From Amoebophrya sp. A120 (taxonomy: Eukaryota > Protista > Dinoflagellata), in assembly GCA_905178155.1 (NCBI GenBank), contig CAJINV010000005.1, positions 2,730,054-2,794,053 on the forward strand: a stretch of DNA of 64,000 nucleotides, given 5' to 3'. Numbering within the stretch: position 1 is the stretch's first letter; each line of letters starts with the position of its first letter. Below are positions 5 through 63,984 of the stretch, in pieces. The position numbers were made by a program, and so were the translations under genes. The notes below the pieces were generated by a model. The model did not search any database. It had not been told where the DNA came from and saw only the letters and a program-made list of their open reading frames with translations.

Positions 5-3000
5 TTGAAGAGTGTATCGGCGGTGGGCGGGGGAGGAGGTGGTGTACAACTGGGTGGATCAAGATCTACTTCCAACACGACGAGTTCTATGGGCAATAAA
101 CCACTTTTCTTCGCCCGGGAACGGTCGATCCGGACGGGTTACCTACAGGATTCCACCCTCACCGCGGAGAACTTCGGGTTTGAAACCGCGGGCGACGAGG
201 AGATTTTCCAGCTGCTCCAGGACCAATACAAGGAAGAAGTCGTCCCCTTCGACCAGGCCGCGCTCGCCGCGGGCAGGACGCCGGGGGTGCTACCCGGCTC
301 CGTTGCGGACGTGAACTTCGCGATGGGAGGAGGTGGAAGTGGAACTACATCAAACTACAAAAACAGCACGCAAAACTCCTCGTCGTCCGCGGGCAATATG
401 CTGAACTACAACACGTCGCAGAACCATTTGGGGTCCTCCTTTCTGCAAAACACAATGGCAGACGTCTCCGGGCCCTACCGGTCCGTGCGCCAGATGCAAA
501 CCCCCCAGCACGTCGGGCCGAACGGCGAACTTTTAAATCTCGCCGGCGCTCAATCCAACCCGTATCCTGTGCAAAAGTATCGTACTCGTACAAATGCAAG
601 TCTTGCATTACAAATCTTGTTTCCAAGGCAAATCTGCATTACAAATTTTATTTCTCATGCTGGGGAAATTTGTAATGCATTTATACGATTACGATACTTT
701 TGCACTGCATAACCCGGGCAGTCAGCCCAACATCGGGTACAAGCCCTACTTGCCGGCGAACTCCACCGCCATGCCGGAGTTGACGAAAATACAGAGAATC
801 ATCCTCCACCGATTCCAGCAGGACCAGCCGACCAAGCTCTTCCCCCATGCGTACCGCGTGCCCGCGTTGAACAGAACACCTCTGCGGGAGCTGGTTCTCC
901 TCGTTTTGAAAGAAGCGCTCGCAGTGTTACCGAAAGACCAGGACCACGCGGAAGCCCCGGCCAGCGACAAGCAGAACGAGAAGATCCGCTTGGCGATCGC
1001 GGTGTTAGGTTTGGCGAAAAACTACCAGGAGGAGCACATCGATTTGGACCCAGCGAGACAGGGCGGGACCTACTTGACGAACAGTTGCTTCCAGGGCTTG
1101 TACTTCCTGGCGGAGAACTACCCGGACAACCTGGACTCAGTTTCTGATTTGTACCAACGGTTGGATGAGGTCGCGCTCGCGCCGGTCGTGATATCATCAA
1201 CCTCTTCAGGCGATGTAATTGGTGGAGGACGTAGCAGGACCACTGCGGGACAGCAACATCATCATGGCGCGATCCCACATTCCCGGTCGAAGTCTACCGC
1301 CGGTTCGCAGCACGAACCTCATAGTTCCGCCCGGTCAAGCGGGCGGAGGCACTCCGGAGACAGAACCGCACTGCAATCCGGAGGAGCCCAGCGCTCCGTT
1401 TCCGCCACTTCCGGGGCGGGTGGCGCTAACAAAAGCCGATCGCCCCGACTGTCCTCCGCGTCGCGCTCCGGGTCACCCAGACAGCCGCATCTTTCGCCGC
1501 GGTTGCAGGCTGCGGGCAGAGCAGGAGGACATTCTAGGAGTAAAACGACCAGACAGGAGAAGCGCACGAAGATCCACCCGTCCTGCCTCCCGTCGCGGGC
1601 GCAGCTGAGACAGTACAGCGACTTATCGATCGAAAGGAACCACAAAGAGTATTTACTCGTTCTGGAATTGATTCTCCAGTGCGTCCGGATTGCGGAGTTC
1701 CGCGAGGTGGGGTTGAGACTGCTCTCGACCAGCTTCAAATCTAGATACCGTGTGTTAGACTCCATCGCGGACAGCCGGACGGAGTCCTTCCGCTACCGCC
1801 CCGCCTTTCTGCACCGAATCCTTCTCTCCCAGGCAGTGACGCTGTTCAAACTGCAAACCTTGGAATTGTCTCTCGTCCACAAGCTCGCCGCGGAGTTCCG
1901 GACTAAAATGCTGCTCGGGATGAGAACGACGAACAGCGGAATCAATAGTAGGAAGAAGCTGTTGCACAAACAGTTCGGAATGGTGCAGGAGCACGAAGAC
2001 TACATGGAATTGGAATCGGAAAACCTCTTCGAAGACCCGACTATCGATGGCACGAGCGCCACCGCCGGGCTGTTGCTCACGCCCGCGGAGCGGCAGCGCG
2101 GCGAGTTCTTCCAGGCGACCACGCAGAACCTTGCGGACGAACTGGTCAGCCGCGTGAACCAGGTGACAAGCAGCAACGAGCCGCTATTTGCGGCGAACAT
2201 GCGGCATCTAATGGACGGGTTGGCGCAGCTGTCGCCGGCGGATATTGGAAGTGGTGGTCCTCGTGGGGGGTCAACAGCGTCCTCATCGAGCGCCGGCGTT
2301 GCTGGAATCAGGTCGTCCTCCTCCGCATCCCTACCCCTGGATCTCGAGCAGTACTTGAAGCTCGCCCTGGACGGCTCGCAAACGCGGTCGAAGTACTACG
2401 ACGAGCCTGCGGACGCCGCGAAGAGGAGAAAAACAGGTTCTACTGCGAGGAATTTCGGTAGTGGGAGTAGCACCAGTCAGCACTTTTGTGCGGAGATCGC
2501 GGCGGAGCAGGGGATGTTTGTGGAAAATTCATCATCGACGCTGTTCAATGCGGGAGGTACAACTGCTGGTGGTCCTCCTCCTACCGACGCCGGTCGTGGT
2601 CCCGGGAATTATATGGCATCAAGCAATCCAGCGAATAATTCTTCACAGCTGGCGTTGATGGACTACGGGCAGCAGCAGATGAGCAATGTCCCCTTTAACC
2701 AACAAGCAATCAACACCAATTACACGGCCACCACCTCCAAAACCGCGACCTCCAATGCCCTTTTCTACGACACCTCCAGTTTCTACCAGCTCGCCGGGCT
2801 TCTGTTTCTCACCCCCTACTTCGAAAGCCAGCGGCAGGTGCAGTCCATGACCACGTACGGCACGTCCACCGGCTCCATGGGCTATTCTGAGTAAAAACGT
2901 CCCCACCCCAGAGTTGTCATGCAATTCTGCATGCCAAAAAAGTAAAAGTTTCTCATGCGGAGCCCTATGAGAAGCATTCTCTCTTCGTGTTTTGGGATTT

Positions 3001-6000
3001 GTGATGCTAGAATCAGCATGACATGCTAGATCTGTGATGCTTCTGAGCTAGCTAAACAGGATTACACTACGTGGACAAACTTGTCATGCCAAACAACCAA
3101 AGCTGTGTGATTTGTCTAGCAGATGACTCTGTTGTGGGGACGTTTTTAATCAGGATATGGCCATGCCCGTGAACAGTGTGTTGTCGACGAACCCGGGTAC
3201 TCTGGCCTATCTGGATTTGCGAGCCCGGAACGTGTGCAACTTCCTCCACCAGCAGAACCGGCGGAAGATTGCCGCGGACTTGACGACCGAACTGGGACAA
3301 ACCTTCACGGAATTTCTCTACTGGACCCTGATCTACACGAAGCCGGACCACGAGTCGCTCCGAAGTTCGTTCCGGAACCTGATCGACGCCGGGATTTTGT
3401 CGGCGGAAAAGGAGTTTTTCAAGCAAAAACTCCTCGCGGAGACCACCGCGACGGGGTCCAGCTCGAAGCAGTTCTTGATGGTGTACTCCAGTCAAAACGC
3501 GGCGCTGCAGATCCAACTGACAGAAGCCGCGCGGCAGGAGTTCTGTGCGAACTTGCTGTACTTGGTCACGAACAGCTTGTTGAAAGCGTCGGCTGAACTT
3601 CTTGCGGAGAGGACAGGAGCACGGGAAGAAATATCAAATCCTGAAGAGAAGACACAGAAGATTTTCGCCACGACCGCCACCATCGACAACGCGAACGGGT
3701 CGGTTCCCATGTCGTTCTTCCACAACTTGGCCCAGAAGCTGTTCAGCTTTTTACCCGTTTTGAATAGCGGGACCTCCTCCGCGTCAAAGTTGGCGATTTA
3801 CAGTGCACTCATACAGCTGCTGGGGAAGATTTGCGGCACAGAAGTAGATCTTGCTGGAGATGAACCAAATTCAACTAGAGTAGAACAACGAGAGTCCTCT
3901 CAGACGAATCCTCACACGAGAAAATTCCTGGTTTCCTCTACCACCGAGCACGACCAGTCGGTGAGTATGCTGCTGCAGGATGCGTTGGCGAATGCGAAAC
4001 TAGATTCGAACTCCATCAACATCGCGGTGTCCAGCCTGTCCGTGCTCCGTTTTTTGGTCGAGAGAGACGAGGTTTTGCTTTCCGCCAATTCCACCTACCT
4101 CTGGCAGTGCCTGAAGCAGATTCTGAACCAGGCCTTCCGGTTCGCGAAGCAGACGAAGGACATGCGGTTCGTCCGGGCGGTGCAGGCGTTGGTTGTGGCA
4201 ATGAAACTGCAGGAGGAGAGGGGGGATAGCAGTGTAGCAGGCGACATGGACAACGACCAAGATGCACCATTTGCAGCAAGAACATCCGCAGGTAATACTA
4301 GCGACGACGGTCTATCAGGAGCATCAAGCTTCGTTACCGCCATGTACGAATCTGGTTTTCTTTCCCTCTGGTTCCAGGGCGCCGCCAGCATTTTCCTCTC
4401 AAGCGAAATCGCCGGAAGTGGGCTGGGCTTCGGCTCCTTGACCTCCGCCGCGGGAATTAATACTCATGGCGCCGGGGCCCCGGGTTACAACTTCAGCAGA
4501 GGCGCAGGAGGACGGGCGAATTCATCTTTGCAGAGAACAAGATCCGAAACCGCTGTGTTGGAAGCCACGGCGCTCACCCTGATCCAGTTTCTGGCGACCA
4601 TGATAGTCGTGGAAACCGATGAGGGAACCAATGAAGGAACAAATCAGCCGTTTTACCTGTGTCAGGAGCAACTCTTTCAGGAGCTGGAGTCCTTTCTGGT
4701 CAACTGCGTCGAAAAATCCCAACTGGTCCAGGAATCCTGTACCAACGCCGTCCGAGATTTAACCACGATCTCCGCGCTCGGAGTCTCAGGGACGAGTGGC
4801 GGCGGATTTCTGTCCTACAATAGCGACGCGATGCCGAGTTTCAACAACCCGCCAAGAAGTAGGATGAATACCAGAACTGCACAACACCAGCAGCATTCAA
4901 ACCTTCAGCGATCGATGCAGCGAGCAGCTTCGTCAAAGTCCGCCTCCTCCGTCTCGATTGCGTTGCTGTCCCAAATCCTGGCGCTTCTCAGCAGCTGCAG
5001 CACGCACTCGCACTTATCCTACGTGGAGACAGGGACGCAGGAGTTGAGTAGCTCCAGCGGAATTATGGCAGGAAGGAATCTATCGAACCTAGTAGCGCAG
5101 CAGACGACAACGCTCGCAATCAGGAATGACAACGGGAATGCATCGATGGGAGTCGACGTAAGTTCCGGCGCACCAGCACAACAAGTGGGGGTAGGAGCCG
5201 CAGGAACAACATCTGCGCCTTCCCAAGCAGTTCCGTCGATAAGCAAGCGATCGCTCCTCCTGTCGCAATTGGGTAAGGACCTGCTGATTGCGTGTTCCGC
5301 CTCTGCGGGCCTGAATCGGGACGCAAGCGACATGACCATGCATTTGTTGAACATTTTCCGCCTGGACCTGACAGCACTGATAACCGGGCCACGGGCGGCG
5401 AGAATACCGGACACGCGAAGTCTATTGCAGCAGACCGCGCCAGGTACGACTAAGTATATATAAGTAGAGTTGTCCTCGTGGTCGGTATACATAGTGCCTT
5501 ACATCACGCGTTCGATTGCTACACACTTAAAACATTTTTGAGGGGGAATGCAGGCTAACTTAGCAAACCTCCAGTAGTTGTGATGCAGAAAAACCATGAA
5601 TCAAATTCAAATTTTAATTTCAGGTAACCTCCCCTCTGGTTTTTCCGCGGGTGGAAGTCTGTTGGGTGCCGTGCGAAATTTCTTCACCGGCCAGAGACAA
5701 TCGTCGCCCTACAGCAGGCCACAGCCAAGAGACACGACGGCGCAACCGCAGCAGAGCGGCGGTGTTTACAATGGTGCCGCAAGTAGAACTACAAGTAGCT
5801 TCCCCGCGAACCAACAAGACACCAGCACCTATAACCCGATGCTCGACGGCCAGCAGCTCGCAGAAGAGATTGACGCTTCCGGGCGGTTGCTCACCCTGGC
5901 CGAGGCCAGCCGACGCCTCAACACCACCGCTGCGGGGCTGCAGTACGCGATGATGCACCATGGTAGTGGAATGGATCATCAGACGGAAAAGGAAAATTTG

Positions 6001-10033: not shown

Positions 10034-13000
10034 ATGTTTGGCAACAGCAAGAAGCTCGAAGAGCTGGAGAATCAGCTCAAGGAAACGCAGGAAAAGCTCA
10101 CCGCTGCAAACTCCACCATCCAAGCCAACACTGGGGAGATCACAAAATTGAAGGCGGTAAACCTTTTTGGGTTGTAGTTGTATATGTATGCACTTCGAAA
10201 TCTGCATATGTTACGACACGGCAGCCAGCTAGATGTTATAGAATGGTGACTAGTACGACACTGAGATTGATCAATTTCAATGCCAAAACATCACGATCAC
10301 AAAACACAGGAGGAGAAGAAGACCAAAGACGCGCTGACCAAGAAGGAGCAGGATGCGAAAAAGCTGCAGCAGGACAAGGAGAAAGTAGACAAGGAAAAGC
10401 AAAGCCTCCAGAAGGAAATCAAAGATAAGTGGGAGAAGGACCTGAAAACTGCGAAGGACAAAGCGGCCGAGGATAAAAAGAAACTGAAGGAAAAGCACAA
10501 CGATTTACAAAAGGAGAGGGATGAACTGCAGAAAGAGACGGACGAAAGGATAAAATCGCTTTCCCTGGAGAAGCAACTTCTCGAGCAGAGCAAGGCGGAG
10601 TTGGAGGAGAAAAAACAGGTTTTGGAGACAACTCTGGAGCGGAAAAACAACATCATCCAACTCCAGGAAGAGGATTCGCAGACGGCGAAGTTTTTTTTGG
10701 ACGTCAGTATCGATGGGTGCGAGTTCGCCAAGCCCTTTCCGTATTTTTTGACCGTCCAGCTGGGCGACGAATTTACAAATCCGCGGAAAACGGAAACCTC
10801 CGCGTCCACACAGTACCCGGAGTTCGAAAACAGCTCGTTTTTGCTGCCCTTCCACGACGAGGACACGGAGAACCAGTTACTACTGAAGTGCTTTGTCGTG
10901 GTAAATCCGGAGCGCGGGGACGAGTCGACGGTGAAGCAACTAGGCGAAGCGGTGGTGTCCTTGCACGAGCTGGGCGCGTTGAAGTCCGAGCGGCAGGATC
11001 CGAGGTTACAGGAGTTGAGGCAGAAGACCATAGTGCAAAACGCGAGTTTTCTGCGCAGGATAGACGGGGCTGGTACTGGAGCTTCGAAATCATTTACTCA
11101 TAGAAATCGATTTTCCACCTGTTCTTAAAAGTGATCTACGTCAGAAGTCACCCGGGTAGTATTAAGACGCGCCGTCGTGCGGATCTAAATCAAACCTTTA
11201 CCTTTGTACACGTATCCAGGTAAAGAGGCCGACGTGGTTCTTGTCGGCAAGTCCATGTTGCGTATCGAGAAAAAGCTGCTAAAGCCGTCGGAGTCGCTGA
11301 AACTCCAGCTCCAAAGTGCCGATGGCGCCACGGAAATAGAGCGAGTGCGCGACAAAGCACTCGCTGAGGAGCTGAACCAGGGATTATGGTAGTAGATGTA
11401 GATTGCTTTGTGAAAAAGAACTTCGTTGATACTTTTCGACGAGAATGAGTTATGGCGCTTTTCATGCATTTGGAACTTGGGTTGCACTCCAACACAATCA
11501 GGACCATGATCTGCGTTCACATGTAACCAAAAACCCCATCCCCAGGCTCGTTACCCCGTTTCAGCACCGGCTCCGTATCCTTTGCCACTGCGCCAAGGAC
11601 ATTCTGTACCAACAGGGCGGGGGTTCCAGCTCCTCCTCAGCGCCAGCACCCGGTGCTGCAGAAAAGGTGGGCGTTCCAGCAGGAGGAGAAAATATTCGTA
11701 GTGCTGCAGGAGGTACAACAACTTCTATCGACAATAGCCTGATCACCGGCACCGAAGAGAAAAGCTCCTCCTCCACTGCAAATCATCCGTCCAACACAAA
11801 AGGCACCAAACTCGTTGTCACGGCCCGAATTTTGAAATTTGACGGCACTGTCCTCTACGAAGTTCCATCGACCGAACACGAATTGAGTTCCGCGCAGTTC
11901 GGCACGGCGAGTCGGGCAGACATTCTAGATTACTTGCTAGTGAATGAAGAACTTGTGCTGCCGTTACCCAACACAAATTCGCTCTACGACGACCCTGGCG
12001 GAACGAGTTCCTCAAACGTTTTACGGGACCAGCGGTGCGAACTTTCGATCACAGTGACAAATAGGAAGCATGTGCAGGAGATTTTTTCCGTCCAGTTTTT
12101 TTTGAACGTGTTGCCCGCGTTCGAGCCGGTCACGGTTCACTGCGCGCCAATATCAAATGTAAAAATGTCTGGGTCTGGAAGATTGCAACTTGTGATGCTG
12201 TCTCTGCATTATACAAAAATCTGTATTGCATGACCAGCAAGAGGGCTCCAGTTTGTGCTACATGGAGAGGGTATTTCTCATGCGCTATAGGCATCAGAAA
12301 GCCCGCTAAAAATCTGTGATGCCAGGTTCTGCATTACAGACGTCATGCGTCTTGTAAAATCTGCATGAGCATGACATCCAGACCCAGACATTTTTACATT
12401 TGATAGCCAAGCGGAAGCAGCACTTCAAATTTGTCCAGTGTGGTGATGATGGGCAACGGAAGAGAAGGAACGGCTTCACAATCGGAATTCTCGAACAATA
12501 AGCCACCCAAACCGCAGCTGTGCTTCACTGTCACTCGAGAAATCCCCCTGCCCGACATAGCGGAGACCTACCACGGTCTGGAATTTCGCTGCCACGGGAT
12601 TCCGACAGCGAGGCCTTTGCCAGAAATGGCGAATCACGCGGTTCTGCTGGTCTCGCCAGATTTCCCCACGACCGCGGAGACAAATATGCCGTCGCCGCGG
12701 GTCACGGTTGTGAGGTATAGGAGGATATTATGCTGTTTCGAAGTCTTTAGTTGTGTTTGGAAGTCTTTCGTTGTTCCGAATGTTTTTTATTGCATGGCCG
12801 TAGTGGTTGCCATTTTGATTTTGCTACTTGAGCAAATAATAATAATTAAATCTGGTGCTCGTGCTGGTGCTCCTGGTGAATCCGAATACAAATTGAAATT
12901 GCCTCGTGAATCATCATGCACATAAAAAACGAAGTGCAAGAATAACTACGCCCCTCAGATACCAGTACGACACGCAGCGCGATCTGACGTCGATCCTCGA

Positions 13001-15693: not shown

Positions 15694-18511
15694 ATGTTCG
15701 CAAACCTGTTCGACCAACAGCTTCCCGAGTTTCTCTACGACGCGCCGCCGCTCCCAGTTTTCGTTGCCTGTGTCGTGTTGCTGATCACGGTACTACCAAC
15801 ACTGTGGCGAACTTTATTCTCTGGAGGCGATGGCACCCTCGACAATCAGGACCATGACAGGAGCTCGTCGTCCAATGCAAACGCAGAAAACAAGCAGAAT
15901 GGAAGACCACCAGCGGACTCATCATCATCTGTGGCTCCCACTCGAAAAACCACAGCTCCTGCAAAGAAATTCCGCGACGAGCGTGCCATCGTTGTCGTCA
16001 TCGGTGACGTTGGACGGTCTCCGCGAACCATGACACACGCAGTGGAGTTTGCGAGAAATAACGTCTACGTCTCGCTGATCGGCTACTACCCAAAAGGAAC
16101 GAAGAACAACGCTTTGCCGCAGGAACTCACGGATTTGGAAGACAAAATCGATTTTGTGCAGCTGCCGGCTTTTGTCTGTCCATTCCCGAAACTTCCCTAC
16201 ATTTTCTACCTCCTCTGGCGCGTGTTCCACGACCTGTGGCACTTCTGGTTCGCGCTGGGGAGCGTGTCCTTCACGACGTACTTCCGGAGAGCGCAGAAGA
16301 TCAGCTGGATTCTAATCCAAAATCCGCCCATGGTCCCGCAGTTGTTCGCTTGTAAATTGGTACAGATGTTTTTGAAGGTGATGACCCTTGCCTGTCTGAA
16401 GCGAAAGCAGAGCCGAACAAGGCGCTTTCCAACCATCGCAGTGGATTTCCACAATTTCGGCTTCACGATTCTGTCACTGAAACTCGGGGAGCGATCTCCG
16501 ATCACGAAAGTGTTGAAGTTCGCGGAGAAATTGCTAGCGAGGACCTGCGTCGACGTTGGCTTTACAGTAACACACGCGATGAAGGAGGAGCTGGTGAAGA
16601 ACTGGAATTTGAAAACCATCCCAATCGGCGTTTTACACGACCGGGCACGGCCGCCCACCGAGGTTTTGCGGGATGTTGTGCTGTTTTGGGACTCGTTGGC
16701 GGACCGCGGATTTTTGAAGGAATTACACTCGTGTATCAAGTGTAAAAGTGTCTGGGTCTGGAAGATTCTAAACTTGTGATGCTGTCTCAGGATTCGAAAA
16801 AATTTTGTATTGCGTGACCAGTAAGAGGAGTAGATTTTGTGCTCCGCGGAGATGGCATTTTTCATGCCGAATAGGCATTAGGAAGTGCTCTAAAAATCAG
16901 TGATGCTAGGCCATGCATGACAGGCATTATGGATCATGCAAAATATGCATGACAAATCTTGCAATCTCCCAGACCCAGACATTTTTACACTTGATATCGT
17001 GGAACAAAGAAAAGCTGAGGCAGTTCTTCGAGGAAACAGCGGACGAACAGGGAAAACTGCAGGGTTCGACGCCGATGAGCTCGCCAGGTAGTAGTTGCGA
17101 CCAGCGCGAGGACAATTCCGTCGGGGGAAGCCCCTGTCCGAGCAGTTCTGCTGAGGACGAAAATTTTCCGAAGAAGGGAGAGGCGGAGATCTCATCTCGC
17201 AGCAAAGCGACTCCGTCGTCGTTTTCAAAAAAGCAGTTTAATCTCTTCTTTAAATCACCACCTACAAGCGCAAGTCACAACTCCTCCTCTCCGTCTGACA
17301 TCAGTGCAGAAAATTGCATCACCCTCGGAGATACAACTCCACATTCCGCCATTCCAAAACCGCTGCAGATGCGGTTGACAAACCGAGACTGGGACCCGAT
17401 CTTGACGTCGCACTACGCCAAAGCGCGTAGGGAGTGCTGCAACGGCAAGAATGGTGGATCTTCGATATCTTCGACTTCTAGAAGCAGTGCTCCTTCATCA
17501 CCGCCGAAAAAAGTCCTTCATCTACGAGTTGGGTCGGTGGAGGAGCAGCGCAACCCTCCAGTACCAACGTCCGTCGGAATGTTCGGTGTCTCCTCACCCA
17601 TTATTTCCCCTTCACATTCTTCCGCCGCAACTTTTCTGGAAAACGACCCAGACACCGTGAAGGTCGTAAGCTCGACCAGCTGGACGGTGGATGAGGACTT
17701 CACGGACCTGTTTCACAGTCTCCCTGAGATCGCGAAACGGATGAAACCGAAGAAAAAGCTTGTGGTTTTCATCACGGGGCAGGGGGAACTCCGGGGGTTT
17801 TGGCAGAAACATTGGCAGGAGAAAAGGGAGATGGAGATTGGAAAGGACGACGCTACCGGAGTGGTTGTGAAGCTCAAAGACCGCATCCGCGTGCTGTTCC
17901 TTTTCCTCCCCTGGGCCGATTACCCGCAACTACTGCAAGCCTGCGACTACGGGCTCTGCATGCACCAGAGCTCCAGCGGGCTGGACTTACCGATGAAGGT
18001 ATCATTCTTTTTTTTCCGTTTTTGCACAAAGAAGAGCTCCGGGCCGGATTCTTTTCCGGGTGGAATTTGTTCCTCAGTACCAGCAGCCGTCTACTTCTTG
18101 CGAAAACACATACAGGTCGTCGACATGTTTGGTTTCGCGGAACTGCCCGTGGTGGCAAAAAACTTCCAAGCGCTGCCGGAACTCGTTGTGGATATTCCCT
18201 GAAAATTAACCATCCCCATCCAATTTGTCATGCAGAACATGGAGGAAAGTCTGTGTGTGTCATGCAAAAAGTGGATGGGGATCCTTAATTTTGATTTTCA
18301 GGGGATAGTGGACCATGTGAACGGATTTACCTTCACGACCAGCGACGAACTGCGCGACCATTTGGTCTACTTGACGAACAACCACGCAGACGAGCAGTTT
18401 GCAAAACTCGGGAGAATGCGGGTTGCGATCCACGAGTCTTTCCACTCCCCGGAGACAACATGGCCGGCGGTCTGGAAACGGGAGGTGCTTGCGCGGTACT
18501 ACAGCGGGTAG
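15694..18511 (+). CDS. ALG1: Chitobiosyldiphosphodolichol beta-mannosyltransferase; exons 15694-16733, 17002-17998, 18116-18192, 18313-18511
   Basis: Motifs VVVIGDVGRSPRT, LIQNPP, DFHNFGFT, VSSTSWTVDEDF, HQSSSGLDLPMKVVDMFG, ELVVDHVNGFTF. Continuity needs two introners and one GT-AG intron removed. Confidence 0.93.
16734..16996 (+). mobile_element. Introner family A copy (forward), 263 bp, in ALG1
   Basis: TIR TATCAAGTGTAAAA(G/A)TGTCTGGGTCTGG; TSD TCGTG; removal gives ELHSWNKEK. Confidence 0.93.
18193..18307. mobile_element. Short introner, 115 bp, in ALG1
   Basis: TIR TAT(T/C)CCCTGAAAAT; TSD GTGGA; removal restores the conserved ELVVDHVNGFTF. Confidence 0.9.
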
Positions 18512-18977: not shown

Positions 18978-21746
18978 ATGCGTCGCCCTCGTGCCCGAAA
19001 AAAGGGGCGCATAGATCAACTACCGTGGCTGTCGATCATTGCAGGAGCAGCCGCACTGCAACTTCTTCACGCCCTTCCCAGTGCGGGGGCGATTCAAGTC
19101 AAGAAAACAGCAGCCAGCAAAAATGGTAATGGAGCAACAGCGGCGCACCAGTTGAAGAAGCATAAGATCTTCACGAGAGCAACCGCCAACGAGAGCCCCC
19201 ACGCTGCCCCAAACACACCCGTGCACGACAACCCCTACCCGGCCGTCCACGACCGGAATGAAGCGGACTTTGTCGAGGACACTGACATATCAAATGTAAA
19301 AATGTCTGGGTCTGGAAGGTTCTGACACTTGTCATGCACGTTTTGCATGAGCCCTGATGTCTGTGATGCATGCCCTAGCATCACAGATTTTTTGAGAGCT
19401 TCTTGATGCCTATTTCGCATGACAAATGCCCTCTCCACGTAGCAAAAATTACATTCCTTGTGGTACTCATGCAATACAGATTTTTCTGGAATCCAAATGC
19501 AGCATCACTAGTTGCATTCTTCCAGACCCAGACATTTTTACATTTGATACGACAAGGACGACGGCAGCTGGCAGGCCAACAACCGGTACGACACGCTGCG
19601 GCACAGCATCGCTATCAAATGTAAAAATGTCTGGGTCTGGAAGAATGCAACTTGTCATGCTGATTTTGGATTCTAAAAAAATCTGTATTGCATGGGCAGC
19701 AATAGGAGCCCAGTTTGTGCTACGCGGGGAGGGCATTTGTCATGCGGGATAGGCATCAGGAAGGCCTCTAAAAATATGTGATGCCAGATCATGCATTACA
19801 GACATCCTGAGTCATGTAAAATATGCATGACAAACCGGGGACGTTCTTATGCAGTCAGCTGGATGACTGTGACCTGGCTCGTACTGTGAACGCAGCTGGA
19901 TGACTGTGACCTGGCTCGTCTTCGATGGGCAGGCGGATGACTGTGACCTGTCTCGCCCATCAAGATCCCTAATCCGTAGCTCCTAGACGTTGCCTGGCCC
20001 GCGAGTGACCTGGTTATAAAGGGCTTCGTCGATCGATTGCGCCACTAGGGCCTTGTGTTCTGGCTACTCCGGATCGCAATCGATGGAGGGCGGGACCTGC
20101 ACCGGCGACAGGCGCTATCCAACCAACCAACCAACCAAACCTGGTAACCTTCCAGACCCAGACATTTTTACATCTGATAATCGCGCACGCCAAGGAACTC
20201 GCGGCCAAAGCCAAGGAAGATCTTCCGGGCTACACGCTCAGGTACGAAGAGTCGCAAAAGCATTTCGGGTCGTTTTCGGAGCGGAAAAAGAGTCTCGACG
20301 AGGAGGTGAAAGCGATCAAGGAGCTGGAAGACGCGGAGTTCGAAAAGCTCGTCGAGATCAAGAAGCAGAGCTACGAAGAGGAAATTCTGGTGAAGAAAAA
20401 GAAAAAGCTGCTCGAGCAGATGATCGAAAACCAGCGGAAGAGGGAGGCGGATTTTTTGAAACAGAAACAAGAGCTGGAACAAAAGTTGCAACAGGAAGAG
20501 AAGGACTTGCAAGCCCAAGTGGACAAAAGCTCGAAGGAATTGCAGCAGGCGGAGGACTATCAAATGCAAATATGTCTGGGTCTGGAAGGTTGCAACTTGT
20601 GACGCTGTCTCTGAATTCGAAAAAAATTCTGTATTGCATGACCAGCAACAGGGGTCCAGTCTGTGCTTCTACGCGGAGAGGCCATTTCTCATGCGGGAGA
20701 GGCATCAGGAAGCCCTCTAACAATCTGTGATGCTAGGTGATGCATTACAAGCATCATGGGACATACAAAATATGCATGACAAATGTGGCTTTCTTCCAGA
20801 CCCAGACATTTTTACATTTGATAAGGAGAATTTCGAGGAGGTTGAGAGAATGATCAAATCCTCGGACGAATACGACAAAACTTCGAAAAGCGTCGACGTG
20901 CTAGCGGCGAAACGGAAGGAGTTGGTGAAAAGGCAGGAAGATTTTGAACGGGAGTACAAACAAGTCGTCGAAAATCACGAAGCGGCGGAAAAAGATTACA
21001 AGTTCGCCAAGCAGAACGTCTTGGATACGAAAGAAACGGAAGAGGCGCTAAACGTACTTCTGTTCTGATGATGTTTTTTGTATTGTGATGCGTACTTACC
21101 CTTACGCTACTGGAACTACTTACACCAGCTACATATTTTTACATTGCCATCATGATGCTGATGGATCTTCGCAATACAAATCTTATCAGGCCGACCTGGA
21201 CGACGCCGCAGCCAAACTCTCCGAATACTCGACCAGCGATACCAACCCCTGGTCAGGTATGGAAGTGTCAGAATCGAAATTGGCAAAATCGAAAAACTTG
21301 TGATGCACAAAATCGATGTCAGTTGGAGCCTCAGTTTTTCAGTGGCGCATAACAAATTTCGGAAGCACCCAAACCCCGTCTGTCATGCTGTTTGGACAAA
21401 GAAGACTCCTCCTGTCATGCTGCTCTGGCAGCACATTGTATACTCCAAAACAGGCTTACAATCGGTCTCATTTGCCTGCCCCCCAATACAGGCCTTCGGT
21501 GTCGGTGTCCTACATTTTATGCATCACAAATTTTTGTTCGATTTTGTCGATTTCGCTTCTGACACTTCCATATCAGGCTTGATGGGCGGGGACGTGCAAG
21601 AGCCCGAAAAGGAGCCGAAAAACAGCTCTGGTCGCTTGTTTCACTTGAACCCAGCGGTGCTGATCTTGCTGTTGGCAGGTTTGATCGCGCTCAGCATGGT
21701 GTATGTGTCGGGTGCCAGCGTCTCAGTGCTGGTTTGGGGAAAGTAA
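18978..21746 (+). CDS. Hypothetical coiled-coil protein with N-terminal signal-like segment and C-terminal TM helix
   Basis: N-terminal WLSIIAGAAALQLLHALPSAGA, E/K-rich coil, C-terminal AVLILLLAGLIALSMVYV. One frame results after removing four introners and one GT-AG intron (~21054-21189). Confidence 0.75.
19288..19549 (-). mobile_element. Introner family A copy (reverse), 262 bp
   Basis: Family A TIRs; interior is the reverse complement of the 12151 copy; TSD TGACA/CGACA; removal gives DTDKDDGSW. Confidence 0.92.
19613..20179 (+). mobile_element. Introner family A copy (forward), 567 bp, carrying a nested insertion
   Basis: Family A TIRs; TSD ATCGC; removal gives RHSIAHAKEL; 305 bp longer than the 262-bp sister copies. 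Confidence 0.92.
19837..20135 (+). mobile_element. SINE-like non-autonomous retroposon with (CCAA)4 tail nested in an introner
   Basis: TSD CAAACC (19831-19836, 20136-20141); empty site CAAACCTGG is present in the 33588 copy; three GGATGACTGTGACCTG repeats; microsatellite 3' tail. Confidence 0.75.
20558..20823 (+). mobile_element. Introner family A copy (forward), 266 bp
   Basis: Family A TIRs; TSD AGGAC/AGGAG; removal gives QAE(D/E)NFEEV. Confidence 0.92.
21258..21572. mobile_element. Introner, 315 bp, whose TSD creates GT-AG boundaries
   Basis: TIR TATGGAAGTGTCAGAA(T/G)CGAAAT; TSD TCAGG; removal gives PWSGLMGG. Confidence 0.9.
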
Positions 21747-22388: not shown

Positions 22389-25300
22389 ATGTCTCTCTCC
22401 GCCCTGTATTGCGTGGTCTTTGACAACGCGCGTGGGCCTGTCGTGCGGGGCGGCTCGGAAACGAGTTTGCTGGTGAAGGGTGGCCACCCGCTAAACGATG
22501 CACAGGTCATCCTGGCCAAGCATGGCGAGCACGAAAAGGGATGGAAGCCGCCAGACGCGAAGAAGCAGGCTGTGGAGAGTAACAAATCCGTCGTGCGGGA
22601 AACAATTACAAGGCAAGCCGCCGCCGGCTCGGGTGGATCATCATCATCAGCATCATCGCGAGGAAATAAAGACGCGGCATCCACAGCAGTAGTAGGCCAG
22701 CCCTTGGCGGGAGACGAGGATTGCCACGCCGCCGTATCTGATGCAGCCGAACCTGCACAACCCGCGCAATCTCCGGTTGCCCCGCCCGAGACCGACAACA
22801 GCACAGCAGAGCGGAGATCTCCAACTAACGACGAGGACGAAACCTTTGACATGCAGCCCGAGCCCTCGTATTTTTGTCCCGACCAAAAGCTTATCAAATG
22901 TAAAAATGTCTGGGTCTGGAAGAATGCAAGATTTGTCATGCATATTTCTCATGACCCATGATGCCTGTAATGCATGCCCTAGCATCACAGGTTTTTTGAG
23001 GGATTCTTGATGCCCATTCCGCATGACAAATGCCCTCTCCGCGTAGCAAAAATTAGACTCTGTTTGCTGCTCATGCAACACAAATTTTTTAGTCATCGAA
23101 ACGCAGCATCACAAGTTGCATTCTTCCAGACCCAGACATTTTTACATTTGATAAAGCTCTGCGGCCAGAGCATCCACATCGTGGACGACGCGAAGAACAC
23201 GGAATGGTGCGGCGTACCCTTATACCTCGAGTCGGAAGCCTACGACCGGTCCTGCTTCCGCTTCTGCATCGTGGCGCAGGCGAAATTTGACGACAAGTGC
23301 TACGGCCTGGCCAGCATCCAGTCCGAACACGAGAAGCTGGAGTTGCTGGATTACTTCGAGCGGAGGTTTGCATTGTTGGCGGTGAACCTTGCGCGGCAGT
23401 TTGAGGCGCTGGAAACGGAGCTGCAGTTCGTCTCCACGTGCACCGAGGGCCAGATGTCCCTGGTGTTGCACGAGTGCGCGCGACAATTGAGGTCGGGCCA
23501 GGACTGTTTGACCCCGGTGTGGTGGCCGGTCTGGGTGGACAGGTGGATCCGAAGCGAGAACGAAAAGAAGATCGGGGGGAAGGTTAAAGAGGTGCTGAAA
23601 AAGGAGGAAAGGAGAAAGCGGGATAAGCATGTGGAGTATGTGCGAAAACAGGAGGCAATCAGGCTTGGAAGTAAACATAGAACGGGTACTAAGACCTCCA
23701 AGATGCCGAGAGGGCAACAGGCCAGCACCAATATGAGCACTGCAGGTGAGGGAGATGGCACCACCACGAGTGCCGCTGCAGCTGCCTCCGCCACTGCAGC
23801 TTCTAAAGGCTCCACACTTCTACCGCCAGGAAGCGCCACCGCTGCTTTTCCTGTTGACGAATACCCGCCAATGCAAAAAGCCATTTCTTTCGGTCTCCCG
23901 CCCGTCGGAAGCACCAGTGGCGACGAGCTAATACCAGCAGCAAGCTCCATGTCCTCCTCGTTGTCTAGTCAGCAGCAGCACCCAAAAAGCGCTGACGTTG
24001 ACGGCGTTGCTACTAGAAACCTCGACGCCGCAACGGACTACAACCTGCCTCCGCAGGAGGCATTCTACCCCGTCCCAGAAGTATCGCAATCGGAGCTCGC
24101 CCGACAGCGCGCTTTGGTGGACAAGTTGGAGAAGTGGGTGCTGTACCAGATGGCCAAGATGCACAGCCGGCCGCTGGAAGGCATGTTTCACGAAAAGCAC
24201 GTGCAGAGGTTTTTCATCGAGAGGGAAATCTCCGTACCGAAGTTCCGGATCCTGGATACTTGGCGCCCGCACTACGAGGCGTTCGGGCGGTTTCGATTTG
24301 ACCGACGACCACCGCCCAGCTGGACATGGACGGCGATCCTGTCTCCGGTAGAATGATGACAAGATTGAGCTATTTTGATGTGCTTTATGTTCAATCGTGC
24401 AGACAGCAGAGAAAGTGAAAGTGCAAGAAGAAAACCAAAACCGGCACTGTATGTATTAATTTGTAGATGATCAGTACGAAGTCATCAAAAAATAGTATAG
24501 AGCATCCAAAGATTTATCACGACTCGACACAACTACAGGAAAACGCCTCCGTCCCGAACCTCCCCACTCAAGCCACAGGTCAGATCGATCAGCACCAAAT
24601 GCAACTGCTCACCGCGAAGCGAGACGTGCCGCAGCACAGCCAGTACCTCGACAGGTACAGCACCCATACTACCAGCACGCCCCCGAGCGCCATGGCGGTA
24701 GCGGTGGAATCGGCACGGAGTGCAAGGGAGAACGAGCAATATAGCAACGTCGGGAAGGGTAAAGATCACAGCACAACACCTACGCATGCAAATGCCACCC
24801 CCGGAAATGAAGCCAATGCTTCTTCTAATGTCGGAAGAACTGCTGGCGCCAGCGCACCTTCTTCGCAAAAACCACCACTCGGCACCACCACCGCAGCAGC
24901 CGCATCTCCAACCGTGATAGACTCGTCAACCAAGCCCCCGCACCAGTACGATAAACCGGTTTACGCGATGACGGGGTCCACTCTCCCGATCCTCGACGCG
25001 TCTCGAGTCCCCGTGATGCTGCTGAGCCCGGAACGGCTGAATCGGAAATTCACAAGGTATGACGATGACCCGCTTTTCGCGGACGAACCGCAATTGGATC
25101 TGACTCTTTTCGAAGTCGTCCCCTTTATCAACGGTTTGCACAACATCTCCCAGATTGCGAAGCTTTCCGGCTGCGACTTGGAAAACGTCGACTTGGTCAT
25201 CCGACACTTGGTGAAAAGCCGCTGGGTGTTCATGATTGACCCGATTCACGAATTTGCGCTGTACCGGTTGAAGCCCGAATTTTACGACTTCTTCCACCGG

Positions 25301-40283: not shown

Positions 40284-40449
40284 GGTGCCTGGATCCTACC
40301 ATTGGCCCTACACACAGTCTACCCCAGAGAAAAGCACTAGCACACCCATACCAGGTGCGCACCTTGCACGCACATAGCCCCTCCGTTATCTACGTCTTTT
40401 AGTTGTAGCCGGAAAACGGTGCTTCTATCTACTAAAACTGACGCATGTC

Positions 40450-55000: not shown

Positions 55001-55119
55001 TGTTATAGGTAGACTGATCCCCTTCGGAAAGGGTTCCTTCGTCGTCACGTGGTCGTCTTTCTGCTGGCCAGAAGATCGTGTAAAAATTGCAGAGAAAGTT
55101 GAGTTTCGTACGCTATAGA

Positions 55120-59228: not shown

Positions 59229-62200
59229 ATGATGGGTTCGTGTTTCCATCCAAGTTCCACCGGCACATGGTATGCTCAAATACGAAGGCAAGACTTCCAC
59301 ACCGCATCTCGAATTAGCCGCGCAATGGCGTCGCTTCCCAGGCTTGCGGCAGTGCTACACTATCTTCTTTACGACACCGGACAGCAGCACGCACTCGCAA
59401 TGGACGCACCTATGGGCTTTGGAATCGGTCAGCAGCAGCGTGGGGTTGTGTCGGCGTCTACTTCAGAGAGGACATCCTCGGTAGAAACACACGACGGCGC
59501 GTCGGCGTCGGCGCTGCTCCAACCGCAGCAGAATCAGAACTCAGGAGAGCAGACCAACACGATTTTCGAAGTCTCGTCCGACCACTCGAAATTCGGTGTG
59601 TCACTGATCCCGGAAGAAACAAAAATCCAACTCACGCCTCCAAATCGGTATTTCCGGCAGCCGACAGCGGAAGAAAACATGGCGAGTCTCCGGTGCACGA
59701 GTAGTCAGGATCTTCAGGTGGATTTCCTTTACGTAAAAGACGTCCTGTTCGGGCTACTCGATTACGCGTTTGGTGGGGCGAATCAGAAACAAGACCCGGC
59801 GAAAAACGCATTCGCGCGGCAGCTGACCCGAGTCCAGCATTCGTGGCACAATGTGGCGACATTGCAGGTAAGCTATCGTGCTAGATCGCTGTGTAGTGTT
59901 TTGCCATTGCATTTCCTGCTTGATAGAGCTTTGTATCTTGAAGACCACAAAGAGTGTTACTGCAACTCTCGATGATGTTTTGTGGTTCTTACTTCCGCGA
60001 ATACCATGCGAAAAAAATGTCAACACAACAGTAGGGTGGTTTCGACGACTGTGCGCTGGGCTTCATTGTGCTTCGGTATGAAATGCGAGAAGCAGCAACA
60101 AATAGACAGAGAAGCGCTTGGATTTCAGTAGTAAAACTTCCAAAGCTTTTGTATTGCGTTTTGAGGAGCTGGAGTGCGACGAAACATTTACTTTTACCTT
60201 TACGTTGGTCTTAACAATACTTCCTGCTAGTAGATAACTGCTTTCCGCTTTCCATACCCTCCTGTGGTCCGTTTCCCTGAAGCCGCCCGTGTATCGTTGG
60301 CACGAACTGACGCAGAACGCCTACCTCCCGGAATTTTTTGCGCTGCTGAACACCGCGATCTTGAAAGAGCCGCTCCCCTTCTCAACGCTGATGCAGACCG
60401 GTTGGGGCTTGCCGCTGTTTTACCAGATGTACCAGATCCAGGAGGGTCTATTTCCAAGGGAAAATCTGTTCAACGCCGGCCCCGGACAGGAGGAGGCAGC
60501 GCACGGGAAAGAGGAAACTATTGGCGTGCCATCGCACAATGAAAAACATTTACAGATGGGCGGAGAGGTGGACGAGGTTCAAGATACTGTGCGTGTTGAA
60601 ACAGAAACCACAGCTAGTGTGTCTTTTTCGGCGAGTGGTGAGCTTGTGCGGGAAGGGACTCTGGAAAGAAGTGCGGAAAAAGCATTGTCCATATTCGACC
60701 TCGACGAAGCGGCGACGACCTTCGCAATTCTCGGCGAGGAGTACAAAATCCCCGGAGAGGAGGCGGAACCGCAGCAGCACAGCCAGGGTCCTTCGAACGA
60801 ATCCCTCCTTCAAACAGTCCAGTGCGTTGACGATGTCGACCCGGCACAGCAACTTGTTGCTGACCAAGACGCAGCTCGTGTCAAAGTGGAAGAGCAGAAC
60901 CCCATCTGCCTCGCCCGCCGTGCTGTGCGTGACGGCGACCCAAGTTTGCCGCGGGACTCGATGCCCCGCCAGTGGATCCATGTAGACACGGCGCGAGGGC
61001 ATTTCCGCGCGCTGCGGAAACAGAAGAAGGAAGAGCAGATAAGTAGCGAAGATGTTGAAGAAAACAATGGAGATTATACGACACCACAGACCGCTGCGCC
61101 TTCGCCAAAACCATCAACCCGTCGTCGAGACAACTACTACAAGAATTTTCGCGCCAACTTCCCCGCCTGGCCCCGGGCGTTTTTCGAGCATCCAGGGTAC
61201 CTTCGGCTGCTTTCTGAAAAACCGCTCGCGGAAGAAGGACTTGCGATTGCGCAGGACATCCTGGACGCGACGGACGGGGCGCCGACGGTCGAGGACCCGG
61301 TCGAATTTCTTCACCAATTTGACCTGCGGGAACACCAGGTGGTCCAAACCGGCGCGCACTTTGACGAGTGGCGGGCTCTGCTCGCCGCGCCGATTCACAA
61401 GGAGAAGCTATTGCAGAACAAACGCCTGATCCTCTCGCCCCACGGCCACCTGACGCACGAGACAGATTTGCATTTTGTCCGGCACCTGGTCGACGTGGCC
61501 GAAGCGGTTTTGGACATTGGCGATTCCCTCGTGTCCGAGTCCTACGCGCAGCAGTACCTGCAGCGGCTGCTGTGTTTGCACGATAACAGCGGGGATAAAG
61601 GAAAGTGCAGCACGATGGAAGATCTGGAGGTGTACGAAACGCTGTCCCCTTCTGATGTTAAAATGGACGAGGAGAGCATGCGGAAACGCGGTTTGGAAAA
61701 CGGGTTGGTCACCGATAAAAGTATGGCGTTCTCAAACGTTACATTCTCAACTATTACATGAATTTGTAATGCAAGAACGGCGAAAGTGAAAGGGACAAGA
61801 TTGCGCCTTGTGCATCACAGATTTGGCACAGATTTACATGCTGATTAGCCCTTCGGATGTTTGTCATGCGAAGCAGCTTAATCGTGGCGATCTTGGTGGT
61901 AAATTTGCATGACAAATCATGTAACAGTTGAGAATGTAACAGTTGAGAACGCCATAAAAAGCTACTACTGGTTCGAACCCGGGTCGCTACTGATCCCCGA
62001 AGCGCGGTTGTTACTCATGCTGCGCGCCAGGGGGGAGATTTACCGTCGGGTTTCTCTAGACATTTTCAACCTGCGCTGGGACCCGGTCGCGTTCGCGTTT
62101 TTCGCAATGGAACTCGCGTTCCAATTTGCGCCCGACAACGACGACCGAATGGCGAAGCTGAATTTGGTGCAGCGGTTGATGGCCGGGTTCGAGGGACGGA

Positions 62201-63984
62201 GGAGATGTTTCGGCTTCCGGGAATCGATTGTGGATGATTTGGTCCGCGAAAAGAGAGCAGCAAGTCGTGATAAGGACCTATCACAGCACCAAAATCTCCC
62301 CGCCCGCCCCCTGCGCCTGAAACTCGCGTCCCCGTTCTGGGACGTGCTCGCCTTCGCTTGGGGTTTGCCAATGTACTTTGTCGAGGTTGCTCTCGATTGG
62401 CAACGGGAGGAAGTTGCAAAGATCGACGAGGTCGAAAGGCGAATCGCGGATACCCCGGGAGCGTTAGTGAGCAAGAAAAGCGTACGGCTGCTGGAAAAGA
62501 GGTGCAATTTGGTCTTTTGCAAGACGTTCCAAACGCCAAACAACGAGAACTGCAAGTGCGAAACCTGGTTTCCGAGCATATTAGCGGGAAGGAAATGGGC
62601 GTCGACGTCGGCGTCGCACTCAACACAGCTCGCAACAACAGCAGCGCAGGCACAACTGATAACGCCAAACAAAATCTGCATCTTCGTGACCGATACACGC
62701 CCGATCAACGTAGACCTTCGGTACATCACATCAGTTACCTCGACCGACGAGTGGTGGAGCTTGGCCTACGGTATCAATTTCCTCTACGCGAAGGAGCACG
62801 ACTACCGGATAGAAAGGCATCTACGCAAGAGAAATTTACTGCACATGCACAAGAAAGTGCATCACAAGATATGGCAACGACCTCTACGAGAGCGAATCTG
62901 TAGGTGTAATGCGGAATGAGGTTGAAGTAAATAAATTAAAAAAAAGTTTTGTCATGCCATTGCCACCATGTCTATCTCTATGTACATGCTGGAGTGCAGA
63001 AAAATATCCTGTGGATAGCACCGGGCGGAGTTGCACAAGGAAGTAGCGGACGGGAACGGGGAGACGGACAGCCTGAACCGCTGGAAAAACGACCCGAGCC
63101 GGAAGGTGGGCTGGGCGAAAATGAACATCATGCTCAGGCGGCTGCAGGAAATGGGCGAAAGCACGTGCGAGTACGGGGTTTCGATGGATAGCGACGCGTG
63201 GTTCAAGACGAATGAACCTCTGTCCAACATTGTGGACTACTTCATGAGGTTTTACTCGAAGCCGAGAACTAGTGGTGGTCCAGTCACGCGAGGGACGCCG
63301 GCAGAACATCAAAACCAAAATGTTCCACCCTCCGGTGAAAGTGAAATCGAAAAGCCTTCTGCTGGTCTTCCAAATCTCGTGCTGACCCCGATGCACGGCA
63401 ACGTCCAGTTCGTGAAGGACACCTATGCAGCACAACATGTTGCGGGAACATTTTCTACTACTCAACAAGAAAATCTTCATCCGAAATTATACGATTTCGT
63501 GAAAGCGGACCACGAGATCAAGTTTTTTATCGCTCAGGAGCTGGATGCGCACGCACCCGCGAAGGACCAGGTTGTTTGGAATGTGGACAAGAAAGACCCG
63601 CGGAACCGAAAGATTCTCTCCTTCGACGTGGAGTTGCAGGAGGAAGTGAAGGGCTTTGTTCCGAGAGAACAGGTGGAGCTGACGAAGGCACAGGAATATG
63701 TTGCTACGTCTATCGCGGAGGAACAAACGGTAACAACCGGATCAGCGGAGGAATCGTCGGGAGGAAGGACGAGGGGTTCTTCCGTAGAGGATGCTCTCTC
63801 AGGGGACCGGCAAGGCGAAGAACCCCGACGTGCAGAAGAAGATGAACAGGTACCGACTTTTCAACAAGCGCAGTCTTCGCCCTACCACCCGCAGTCGCAG
63901 TCTTCCTTCAAATCCCACGGCAGCCGGCGGGGTAACGGCGGGTTTTTCGTTGTGAAAAACGTTACAAACGGCCACCCCTGTTAA
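59229..63984 (+). CDS. Large protein with C-terminal GT34 (GMA12/MNN10)-like glycosyltransferase domain; probably continues past the window
   Basis: INFLYAKEHDY, GWAKMNIM, MDSDAWF (DxD), GNGGFFVVKN; exons joined over one GT-AG intron (~59867-60233) and two introners. Confidence 0.6.
61722..61956. mobile_element. Introner, 235 bp
   Basis: About 50-bp TIR TATGGCGTTCTCAA..GTTACATTCTCAACT; TSD AAAAG; removal gives TDKSYYWFE. Confidence 0.92.
62822..63017. mobile_element. Degenerate (old) introner, 196 bp
   Basis: Decayed TIR TACGCAAGAGAAATTTACTGCAC versus TATCCACAGGATATTTTTCTGCAC; TSD GCATC/GCACC; removing 201 nt gives IERHRAELHK in frame. Confidence 0.7.

What the first reader, a model, noticed from the sequence alone, without database searches (positions are those of the whole stretch)
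563..63017. Multi-family system of TAY...ATA, 5-bp-TSD transposon inserts that must be precisely removed from coding genes, mostly without GT-AG
Seen: 13 inserts (563, 2883, 12151, 16734, 18193, 19288, 19613, 20558, 21258, 22892, 33588, 61722, 62822) with at least 6 unrelated TIR sequences interrupt 7 genes, including conserved ALG1 and NPRL2. In each case deleting the element plus exactly one TSD copy restores the frame, often mid-motif (ELVV|DHVNG, PDQK|LCGQ). Only one can be read as GT-AG at the frame-restoring length. Known: IR/DR-flanked non-canonical introner elements have been described in Amoebophrya genomes; to my knowledge the removal mechanism and transposase are unresolved. Inference: one rule (TAY..ATA ends, 5-bp duplication) covers all families, implying one mobilising enzyme class and a structure-guided removal pathway. 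DNA-level excision like ciliate IESs with pointers is a formal alternative.
Basis: partly seen in the sequence, partly recalled or inferred. Interest (0 to 1): 0.88.

Follow-up and report, generated by a model that had tools for sequence, protein, structure and literature searches.

The report
Transposon introns spliced without GT-AG signals
In the marine parasite Amoebophrya A120, small hairpin-shaped transposons sit inside protein-coding exons and are missing, to the base, from transcript assemblies even though they lack the usual GT-AG splice signals; this system was described in 2021, and the new point is that the cut likely falls at one fixed offset from the hairpin ends.

Summary
Real, and largely known. 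The window is Amoebophrya sp. A120; the inserts are the introner elements of Farhat et al. 2021. All 13 are present, plus two more. RNA-type contigs (four runs, one sample) skip exactly element plus one 5-bp duplication at 8 of 8 inserts in the range laid; opposite orientations are both removed. In 132 loci from a second assembly plus the window, 214 of 303 TAT..ATA hairpins have a perfect 5-bp repeat. Only 7 of 176 coding inserts can be read as GT/GC-AG at the favoured cut. The families are not unrelated: they share an internal motif. Three imperfect duplications overlap only at a cut after base 4, the register of the one GT-AG insert. That gives N|TAT...ATA-NNNN|, with TAY matching positions +2 to +4 of host donors. 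The lower bound rests on one element. A Ginger-like family with these ends is already noted (Gozashti 2025); I found no transposase. The scan noted a similar insert in Prorocentrum. Most likely a relaxed, hairpin-guided spliceosome; lariats untested.

The parts
563..711 (.). Insert, 149 bp, TSD ACCCG/ACCCG, second-largest family; gene 1
   Evidence: not covered by an RNA lay
2883..3157 (.). Insert, 275 bp, imperfect TSD TGGGC/TGGCC; transcript keeps the left copy through base 4, so the cut is at +4 or +5; gene 1
   Evidence: joint 2881|3162 in 4 of 4 runs
12151..12405 (.). Family A insert, 255 bp, TSD GCCAA
   Evidence: joint 12145|12406 in 3 of 4 runs
16734..16996 (.). Family A insert, 263 bp, TSD TCGTG, in ALG1
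   Evidence: contiguous contig pieces ending 16728 and starting 16997 (X3, X4); A25 homolog colinear
18193..18307 (.). Insert, 115 bp, TSD GTGGA, in ALG1
   Evidence: joint 18187|18308 in 4 of 4 runs
19288..19549 (.). Family A insert, 262 bp, imperfect TSD TGACA/CGACA (cut +1 to +5); opposite orientation to 19613
   Evidence: joint 19283|19551 in 4 of 4 runs
19613..20179 (.). Family A insert, 567 bp, TSD ATCGC, carrying a nested insert of about 300 bp
   Evidence: joint 19607|20180 in 3 of 4 runs
20558..20823 (.). Family A insert, 266 bp, imperfect TSD AGGAC/AGGAG (cut 0 to +4)
   Evidence: joint 20552|20824 in 4 of 4 runs
21258..21572 (.). Insert, 315 bp, TSD TCAGG; the only one readable as GT..AG, at cut +4
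   Evidence: joint 21252|21573 in 4 of 4 runs
22892..23153 (.). Family A insert, 262 bp, TSD AAGCT, in the NPRL2-family gene
   Evidence: RNA contig piece ends at 22885, the leftmost predicted cut, with 57 letters beyond (indirect)
33588..33850 (.). Family A insert, 263 bp, TSD TGAGC
   Evidence: not covered by an RNA lay
37453..37633 (.).
   Evidence: splicing untested
37927..38206 (.).
61722..61956 (.). Insert, 235 bp, TSD AAAAG
   Evidence: not covered by an RNA lay
62822..63017 (.). Decayed insert, 196 bp, TAC start, imperfect TSD GCATC/GCACC
   Evidence: not covered by an RNA lay
15694..18511 (+). ALG1 (beta-1,4-mannosyltransferase) coding region: two inserts and one GT-AG intron
22389..29458 (+). 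NPRL2-family gene; from 23871 on identical to the annotated A120 protein

Best explanation
These are short non-coding transposons (TAT...ATA ends, 5-bp target duplication) of Amoebophrya A120 that are absent, with exactly one duplication copy, from transcript contigs, and they are likely cut out of the pre-mRNA by a relaxed spliceosome predicted to use the paired ends of the element instead of GT-AG. Shown: anatomy, exact removal in RNA-type contigs, both orientations removed, no need for G at +1 or AG at the end. Inferred: (1) one class of integrase-like DDE transposase, acting in trans, spreads all families; (2) the 5' cut lies one base before TAT and the 3' cut four bases after ATA, so the intron reads N-TAY...RTA-NNNN; (3) TAY supplies positions +2 to +4 of the host donor GTAY, and the terminal hairpin brings the 3' cut into place in lieu of U1 and AG recognition. 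Because both ends carry the same signal, any insertion in either orientation at nearly any site would be a working intron that restores the original codons.
For: Exact skips at 8 of 8 inserts laid, in contigs that also skip 8 GT-AG introns. 19288 and 19613 are in opposite orientation and both are skipped at the same contig depth; family A lies 40 versus 53 relative to the sense strand. A 567-bp copy with a nested insert is still removed exactly, so the ends set the cut. Terminal stems are predicted to close in 14 of 15 inserts. Imperfect TSDs allow {4,5}, {1-5} and {0-4}; only +4 fits all three, and +4 is the GT..AG register of 21258. All 10 host donors backed by RNA or annotation start GTA and 7 start GTAY. 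A close homolog has the residue of the left TSD copy at one position-3 mismatch in L061, weakly in line. GT/GC..AG is possible at +4 in 7 of 176 coding inserts, and TSD composition is near background. One rule: 171 of 185 hairpins with a 5-bp repeat start TAT; 214 of 303 TAT..ATA hairpins have a perfect 5-bp repeat; shared internal motif in 89-100% of members of all 12 multi-member families. Farhat 2021 reports 83 of 89 spliceosomal proteins and U2, U4, U5, U6 in A120, with U1 undetected. Gozashti 2025 lists fam38 as Ginger, 5-bp TSD, TA/TA termini.
Against: The lower bound of the register rests on one element (2883) and the upper bound on one (20558); half of the 8 possible outcomes of such three tests would also give a common register. 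The mirror cut +1, which makes the 3' end look like YAG, is excluded only at 2883; 8 of 176 inserts read GT/GC..AG at +1, about as many as at +4. Enrichment of AG at TSD bases 3-4 (18 versus 11.9 of 151, p=0.05 uncorrected) and G at base 5 (52 versus 44.4, p=0.1) is weak, and does not rise in copies with weak TIRs. The more distant A25 homolog has the right-copy residue at the L061 site. The hairpin would bury the donor and must be unwound. No branch point or lariat was shown. No transposase was found. The four RNA-type runs are one sample, contigs only, and their RNA status is the tool's guess.
Confidence: 0.45

Rival explanations
1. The inserts are removed from RNA by a non-spliceosomal cut-and-join activity that measures from the terminal hairpin, as proposed for euglenid nonconventional introns.
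For: No selection for GT or AG; strong terminal stems; symmetry between orientations. Euglena has a fixed-spacer hairpin code with unknown machinery (PMC12501133).
Against: The favoured cut puts TAY exactly on +2 to +4 of host donors and matches the one GT..AG insert; a separate enzyme gives no reason for this. The spliceosome is reported nearly complete.
Confidence: 0.25
2. The spliceosome removes them, but the cut slides within the duplication or uses two mirror registers (+4 with a donor-like 5' end, +1 with an acceptor-like 3' end); the mRNA is the same either way.
For: Only 2883 excludes +1. Published A120 end counts are about 69% N-T at the 5' end and 68% A-N at the 3' end in the largest family.
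Against: A simple model of a motif-preferring aligner gives 67% and 72% with no biology. No alternative joints were listed at any of the three informative sites (15 joints shown, 2 not shown, and two further joints are evident from the contig pieces).
Confidence: 0.25
3. The inserts are excised from DNA in the transcribing stage, like ciliate IESs with pointer repeats.
For: TA-containing ends and loss of exactly one direct repeat resemble IES excision (recalled). DNA and RNA came from different samples.
Against: DNA contigs identical to the window run about 25 bases into the inserts from the exons at depth 42-47; insert sequence is present in the RNA-type runs. No separate germline nucleus is known in this parasite (recalled), so excision would be inherited. 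The DNA joint table was cut (321 rows not shown), so a rare empty site is not excluded.
Confidence: 0.03
4. The genes are dead, or the inserts are removed through nearby canonical sites that add or drop codons.
For: Four of the 13 inserts were not covered by a lay.
Against: 8 of 8 joints are exactly element plus 5; ALG1 stays colinear with its A25 homolog across both sites.
Confidence: 0.02

Closest known systems
Introner elements / non-canonical introns of Amoebophrya sp. A120 (Farhat et al. 2021, PMC7789003)
   Same: Same genome. Inverted repeats starting TAT and ending in an A-run, 3-5 nt direct repeats with a 5-bp example, hairpins, RNA-seq support, no internal transposase, U1 undetected.
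   Different: The paper leaves intron borders 'unknown' and 'variable' and argues against general transposase-mediated mobilisation. Here the repeat is uniformly 5 bp, the families share an internal motif, and imperfect repeats point to one cut.
A120 introner family 38, Ginger-like (Gozashti et al. 2025, PMC12130899)
   Same: [quoted passage not shown]
   Different: About 810 bp, 5 copies. Most of the 58 A120 rows are 'Unknown' with automated TSD calls from 2 to 11 or none. I could not compare its sequence with the window's inserts.
Euglenid nonconventional introns (Nomura et al. 2025, PMC12501133)
   Same: Paired ends, slidable direct repeats, fixed spacing between stem and cut, probable MITE origin.
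   Different: Code is N3CDG...CH'G N5-6|R; here the favoured spacing is 1 and 4 bases around TAT/ATA, the stem is 20-40 bp, and there is no purine requirement after the cut (96 of 151 versus about 57% background).
Fritillaria borealis non-canonical introns (via PMC11282704 and PMC13326754; Henriet 2019 not seen)
   Same: TIR/TSD-bearing transposon introns handled by a conserved U2-type spliceosome.
   Different: Those keep preferred ends (AG-AC, AG-AT) and U1; here all four N-T starts and all 16 end dinucleotides occur.
Ginger2/Tdd DNA transposons (Bao et al. 2010, PMC2836005)
   Same: TIR elements; TDD-4 and TDD-5 make 5-bp TSDs.
   Different: Ginger termini are TGTNR, not TAT; no transposase is in hand here.

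Membership tests
Amoebophrya A120 introner elements | Lies in the A120 genome | tested here: met
   Annotated A120 protein P0014 matches the window 100% over 1798 aa
Amoebophrya A120 introner elements | Terminal inverted repeat starting TAT with an A-run | tested here: met
   62822 starts TAC and is decayed
Amoebophrya A120 introner elements | 3-5 nt direct repeat at the borders | tested here: met
   5 bp at all 13, 4 with one mismatch
Amoebophrya A120 introner elements | Removed from transcripts with non-GT-AG borders | tested here: met
   8 of 8 laid, 7 of them non-canonical; one sample
Amoebophrya A120 introner elements | Repeated in the genome, no internal transposase | tested here: met
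   DNA depth bins over inserts in the thousands to above 100,000 versus about 45; median length 261 of 336 elements; judged by length and ORF size only
U2-type spliceosomal intron | GT/GC-AG ends | tested here: not met
   1 of 13 in the window; 7 of 176 at +4
U2-type spliceosomal intron | Donor positions +2 to +4 like host introns | tested here: inconclusive
   True if the cut is +4; register rests on few sites
U2-type spliceosomal intron | Branch point and lariat intermediate | not testable with these tools
   Only contigs were available for this strain; the internal motif sits 30-50 nt from the ends but is not a proven branch point
Ginger DNA transposons | TGTNR termini | tested here: not met
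   TAT termini
Ginger DNA transposons | Integrase-like DDE transposase in an autonomous copy | not testable with these tools
   No genome held; no long element with a transposase-sized ORF in 478 kb of loci plus the window
Euglenid nonconventional introns | N3CDG...CH'G N5-6|R code | tested here: not met
   Ends are TAT/ATA with other spacing
Euglenid nonconventional introns | Release as circular RNA without lariat | not testable with these tools
   Needs raw or enriched RNA reads
Ciliate IES | Excision from somatic DNA | tested here: inconclusive
   One DNA run keeps the inserts; joint table truncated; other stages not sampled

The most novel reading that the evidence does not exclude
A120 uses a single, symmetric splicing code, N|TAY...RTA-NNNN|, in which a transposon's terminal repeat doubles as the spliceosomal donor and its hairpin replaces both U1 and the 3' AG. 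The published 'unprecedented diversity' of A120 splice sites would then be mostly random target sequence plus aligner sliding, and one integrase-like transposase could insert anywhere in exons at no cost to the protein.
Probability: 0.45. Interest if true: 0.75.

Novelty: already known. Interest (0 to 1): 0.5.

Why it matters
The elements are published, but how they are spliced is an open question. A fixed cut turns it into a direct test: imperfect duplications in existing RNA-seq give the register, and lariat reads tell spliceosome from a new enzyme. If the spliceosome does it, the second step works with neither G at +1 nor AG, which would be an extreme relaxation. The rule also repairs gene models: the public NPRL2 model here starts downstream of an insert and misses the N-terminus.

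Tried and rejected
No whole genome was held, so no genome-wide count or transposase search. Long TAT..ATA elements in 132 loci and the window were nested inserts or chance pairs, with longest ORFs of at most 231 aa among called elements. The TIR pattern found nothing in viral contigs. Two 2026 RNA read sets with the same species label gave only 9 and 3 reads, all on insert sequence, so they say nothing on junctions. Pfam found no family in 12 exon pieces at E 0.01 and nothing meaningful in 6 more; PDB sequence searches gave nothing useful; Rfam found nothing in the window. TSD composition as a register test was weak, and the symmetric YC-N-GR excess looks like transposase target preference. 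Weak-TIR copies added no power (11 oriented of 49, with a high chance background). Synonymous share of TSD mismatches (16 of 26) was not interpretable. Published dinucleotide counts are reproduced by aligner sliding. A model using both motif-like ends (adding one codon) is rejected by the 8 joints. Roy et al. 2023 was not held. A paper search for the second assembly's accession prefix found nothing relevant. Look-ups of earlier notes by place and by sequence were empty.
Full report
Identity. The window is from Amoebophrya sp. A120: an annotated A120 protein matches it 100% over 1798 residues and carries the Pfam NPR2 label. The best ALG1 hit is from A25 at 47% identity. No whole genome was held.

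Observation. A scan for hairpins flanked by direct repeats of any length gave 11 hits at length 5, 10 starting TAT. The decayed 62822 element was the only window hit of a motif-aided search. At all 13, removing element plus one repeat leaves an open frame and keeping it breaks the frame; only 21258 reads GT..AG at that length. ALG1 aligns with its A25 homolog across both sites without a gap.

Removal from transcripts. One search listed 11 runs. Four runs of one sample, flagged by the tool as probably RNA and kept as contigs, were laid on 2650-21900. They skip 8 GT-AG introns and one shows an A-tail, which fits cDNA. All 8 inserts in that range are skipped at exactly length plus 5: seven in the joint table, and 16734 as contiguous contig pieces. 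In one search a contig piece ends at the leftmost cut predicted for 22892. Inserts 563, 33588, 61722 and 62822 were outside both lays. A DNA-like run identical to the window has depth of about 45 on exons, contigs that run about 25 bases into the inserts, and far higher depth on the inserts; its joint table was cut, so rare empty sites are not excluded.

One rule across families. The family A TIR found 132 loci (478 kb) in the metagenome collection, all from one other assembly, JACKZZ01; its relation to A120 is unknown, and none of its loci showed a long match to the window. Without assuming termini, 171 of 185 hairpins with a 5-bp repeat start TAT. Without assuming a repeat, 214 of 303 TAT..ATA hairpins have a perfect 5-bp repeat, 253 within one mismatch, and no other length from 3 to 10 exceeds 5 perfect cases. 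All 12 multi-member families carry TGT(A/C/G)ATGC or its complement in 89-100% of members, against under 0.07 per shuffled element, mostly pointing inward 30-50 nt from each end. I read this as a shared transposase-binding repeat (inference); a branch-point role is not excluded.

Ends do not matter, orientation does not matter. Of 336 called elements, 313 had usable flanks and 176 were confidently coding and oriented. GT/GC..AG is possible in 7 of 176 at cut +4, 8 at +1, and at most 3 elsewhere. At +4 all four N-T starts and all 16 end dinucleotides occur. Against phase-matched flanks, AG at repeat bases 3-4 is 18 versus 11.9 of 151 and G at base 5 is 52 versus 44.4; neither is convincing among 13 tests, and the excess of GR at 4-5 is mirrored by YC at 1-2, as a symmetric target preference would give. 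Families insert in both orientations (family A 40 versus 53), and 19288 and 19613, which are opposite, are both removed.

Where the cut falls. Perfect repeats hide the cut; imperfect ones show it. 2883 allows +4 or +5, 19288 allows +1 to +5, 20558 allows 0 to +4. Only +4 fits all, and it is the register at which 21258 reads GT..AG. The intron then reads N-TAY...RTA-NNNN. The 10 host donors backed by RNA or annotation all start GTA and 7 start GTAY; 13 more picked by eye also start GTA. So the transposon's first three bases sit on donor positions +2 to +4. This is thin: each bound rests on one element, and the mirror cut +1 is excluded only at 2883. At one mismatch in L061 the closer homolog has the left-copy residue and A25 the right-copy residue. 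Published end counts for the largest A120 family (69% N-T, 68% A-N) are matched by a toy motif-preferring aligner (67%, 72%), so they neither support nor refute the register, but they suggest that much of the reported splice-site diversity is sliding. One published family has 30 of 32 ends starting GT or AT and none ending AG or AC, a weak hint of the same 5'-anchored pattern.

Mechanism. Shown: anatomy, exact removal, indifference to orientation, interior length and terminal dinucleotides. Inferred: an integrase-like transposase in trans; a hairpin (predicted to close in 14 of 15 inserts) that defines the intron; a spliceosome that keeps the T+2/A+3 requirement and drops G+1 and AG. Farhat 2021 reports 83 of 89 spliceosomal proteins and no detectable U1, while a relative with canonical introns has U1. 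Against this, the hairpin must be opened for the donor to be read, and no lariat has been seen. I give 0.45 to the full model, 0.25 to a non-spliceosomal route, 0.25 to a spliceosome with a sliding or dual cut, 0.05 to the rest.

What is known. Farhat 2021 describes these elements in this genome, with the TAT start and a 5-bp repeat example, and leaves borders unknown. Gozashti 2025 notes family 38 as Ginger-like with 5-bp TSD and TA/TA termini. I saw no statement of a fixed register or of the shared motif in what I read after searches; subscription papers are mostly outside this library.

What I saw of each paper. PMC7789003: abstract, passages, sections 10, 11, 12, 16 and supplement legends; the figures (Fig. 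3 logos, S19-S25) were not visible and may already show part of the register or motif. PMC12130899: passages, SI legends and all 58 A120 rows of supplementary file 8; family sequences not seen. PMC12501133: abstract, passages, section 5. PMC11282704, PMC13326754, PMC2836005, PMC11453091, PMC12005148: passages. Roy 2023, Henriet 2019 and Guminska 2021: not seen, known only through reviews. Ciliate IES features and the parasite's life cycle are recalled.

Verdict. The added value is RNA confirmation at these sites, a uniform 5-bp rule, a shared motif and a testable fixed-cut model. Interest 0.5.

Noticed in passing
window 22389-23870: The public A120 NPRL2-family protein starts at 23871, but a homolog matches from 22389 (same N-terminal MSLSALYCVVFDNA) across the 22892 insert, so the annotation likely misses the N-terminus.
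   Followed up: partly
window about 19836-20140; L029 4001-4972: Two unrelated nested inserts sit at the same point of family A, right after the internal motif: about 300 bp with a CCAA-repeat tail in the window, and about 700 bp with an A-tail and a duplication of about 19 bp in L029.
   Followed up: partly
window 40442-43090: Broken ORFs with motifs that recall a GIY-YIG nuclease followed by a degenerate reverse transcriptase, as in Penelope-like elements (recalled); Pfam gave no support.
   Followed up: partly
window 47866-49053: GC-rich 1.19-kb element with short inverted ends and a 6-bp direct repeat; a different kind from the TAT inserts. Its size is like TIR entries of about 1.19 kb in the published A120 table.
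   Followed up: no
window 37927-38206 and 38043-38093: A TAT..ATA insert in apparently non-coding DNA, without the shared motif and without a match in the other assembly, holding a 51-bp hairpin with its own 5-bp repeat.
   Followed up: partly
176 coding inserts (window and L loci): At cut +4 the inserts fall between codons more often than expected (82, 54, 40 for phases 0, 1, 2; p=0.0004), strongest in family A; target preference may explain it.
   Followed up: partly
window 12150-12199 and other family A copies: Two 2026 RNA runs with the same species label gave 9 and 3 reads, all on family A sequence and none on exons, hinting that the family is shared with a divergent strain.
   Followed up: no
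L078 1547-2930 versus window 49497-50146: The nested insert of an element in the other assembly is 67% similar over 655 bases to this non-coding part of the window.
   Followed up: no
window 57251-58378: A ribosomal-protein-like gene (L18a-like, named from recall; Pfam gave no hit on exon 1) has two ordinary introns and no insert, in line with the reported depletion in translation genes.
   Followed up: no
window 46395-46720 and 48550-48700: Short dispersed repeats (CACTGCAAAA-like and TTTAGCAGG-like) in a long gene-poor region.
   Followed up: no
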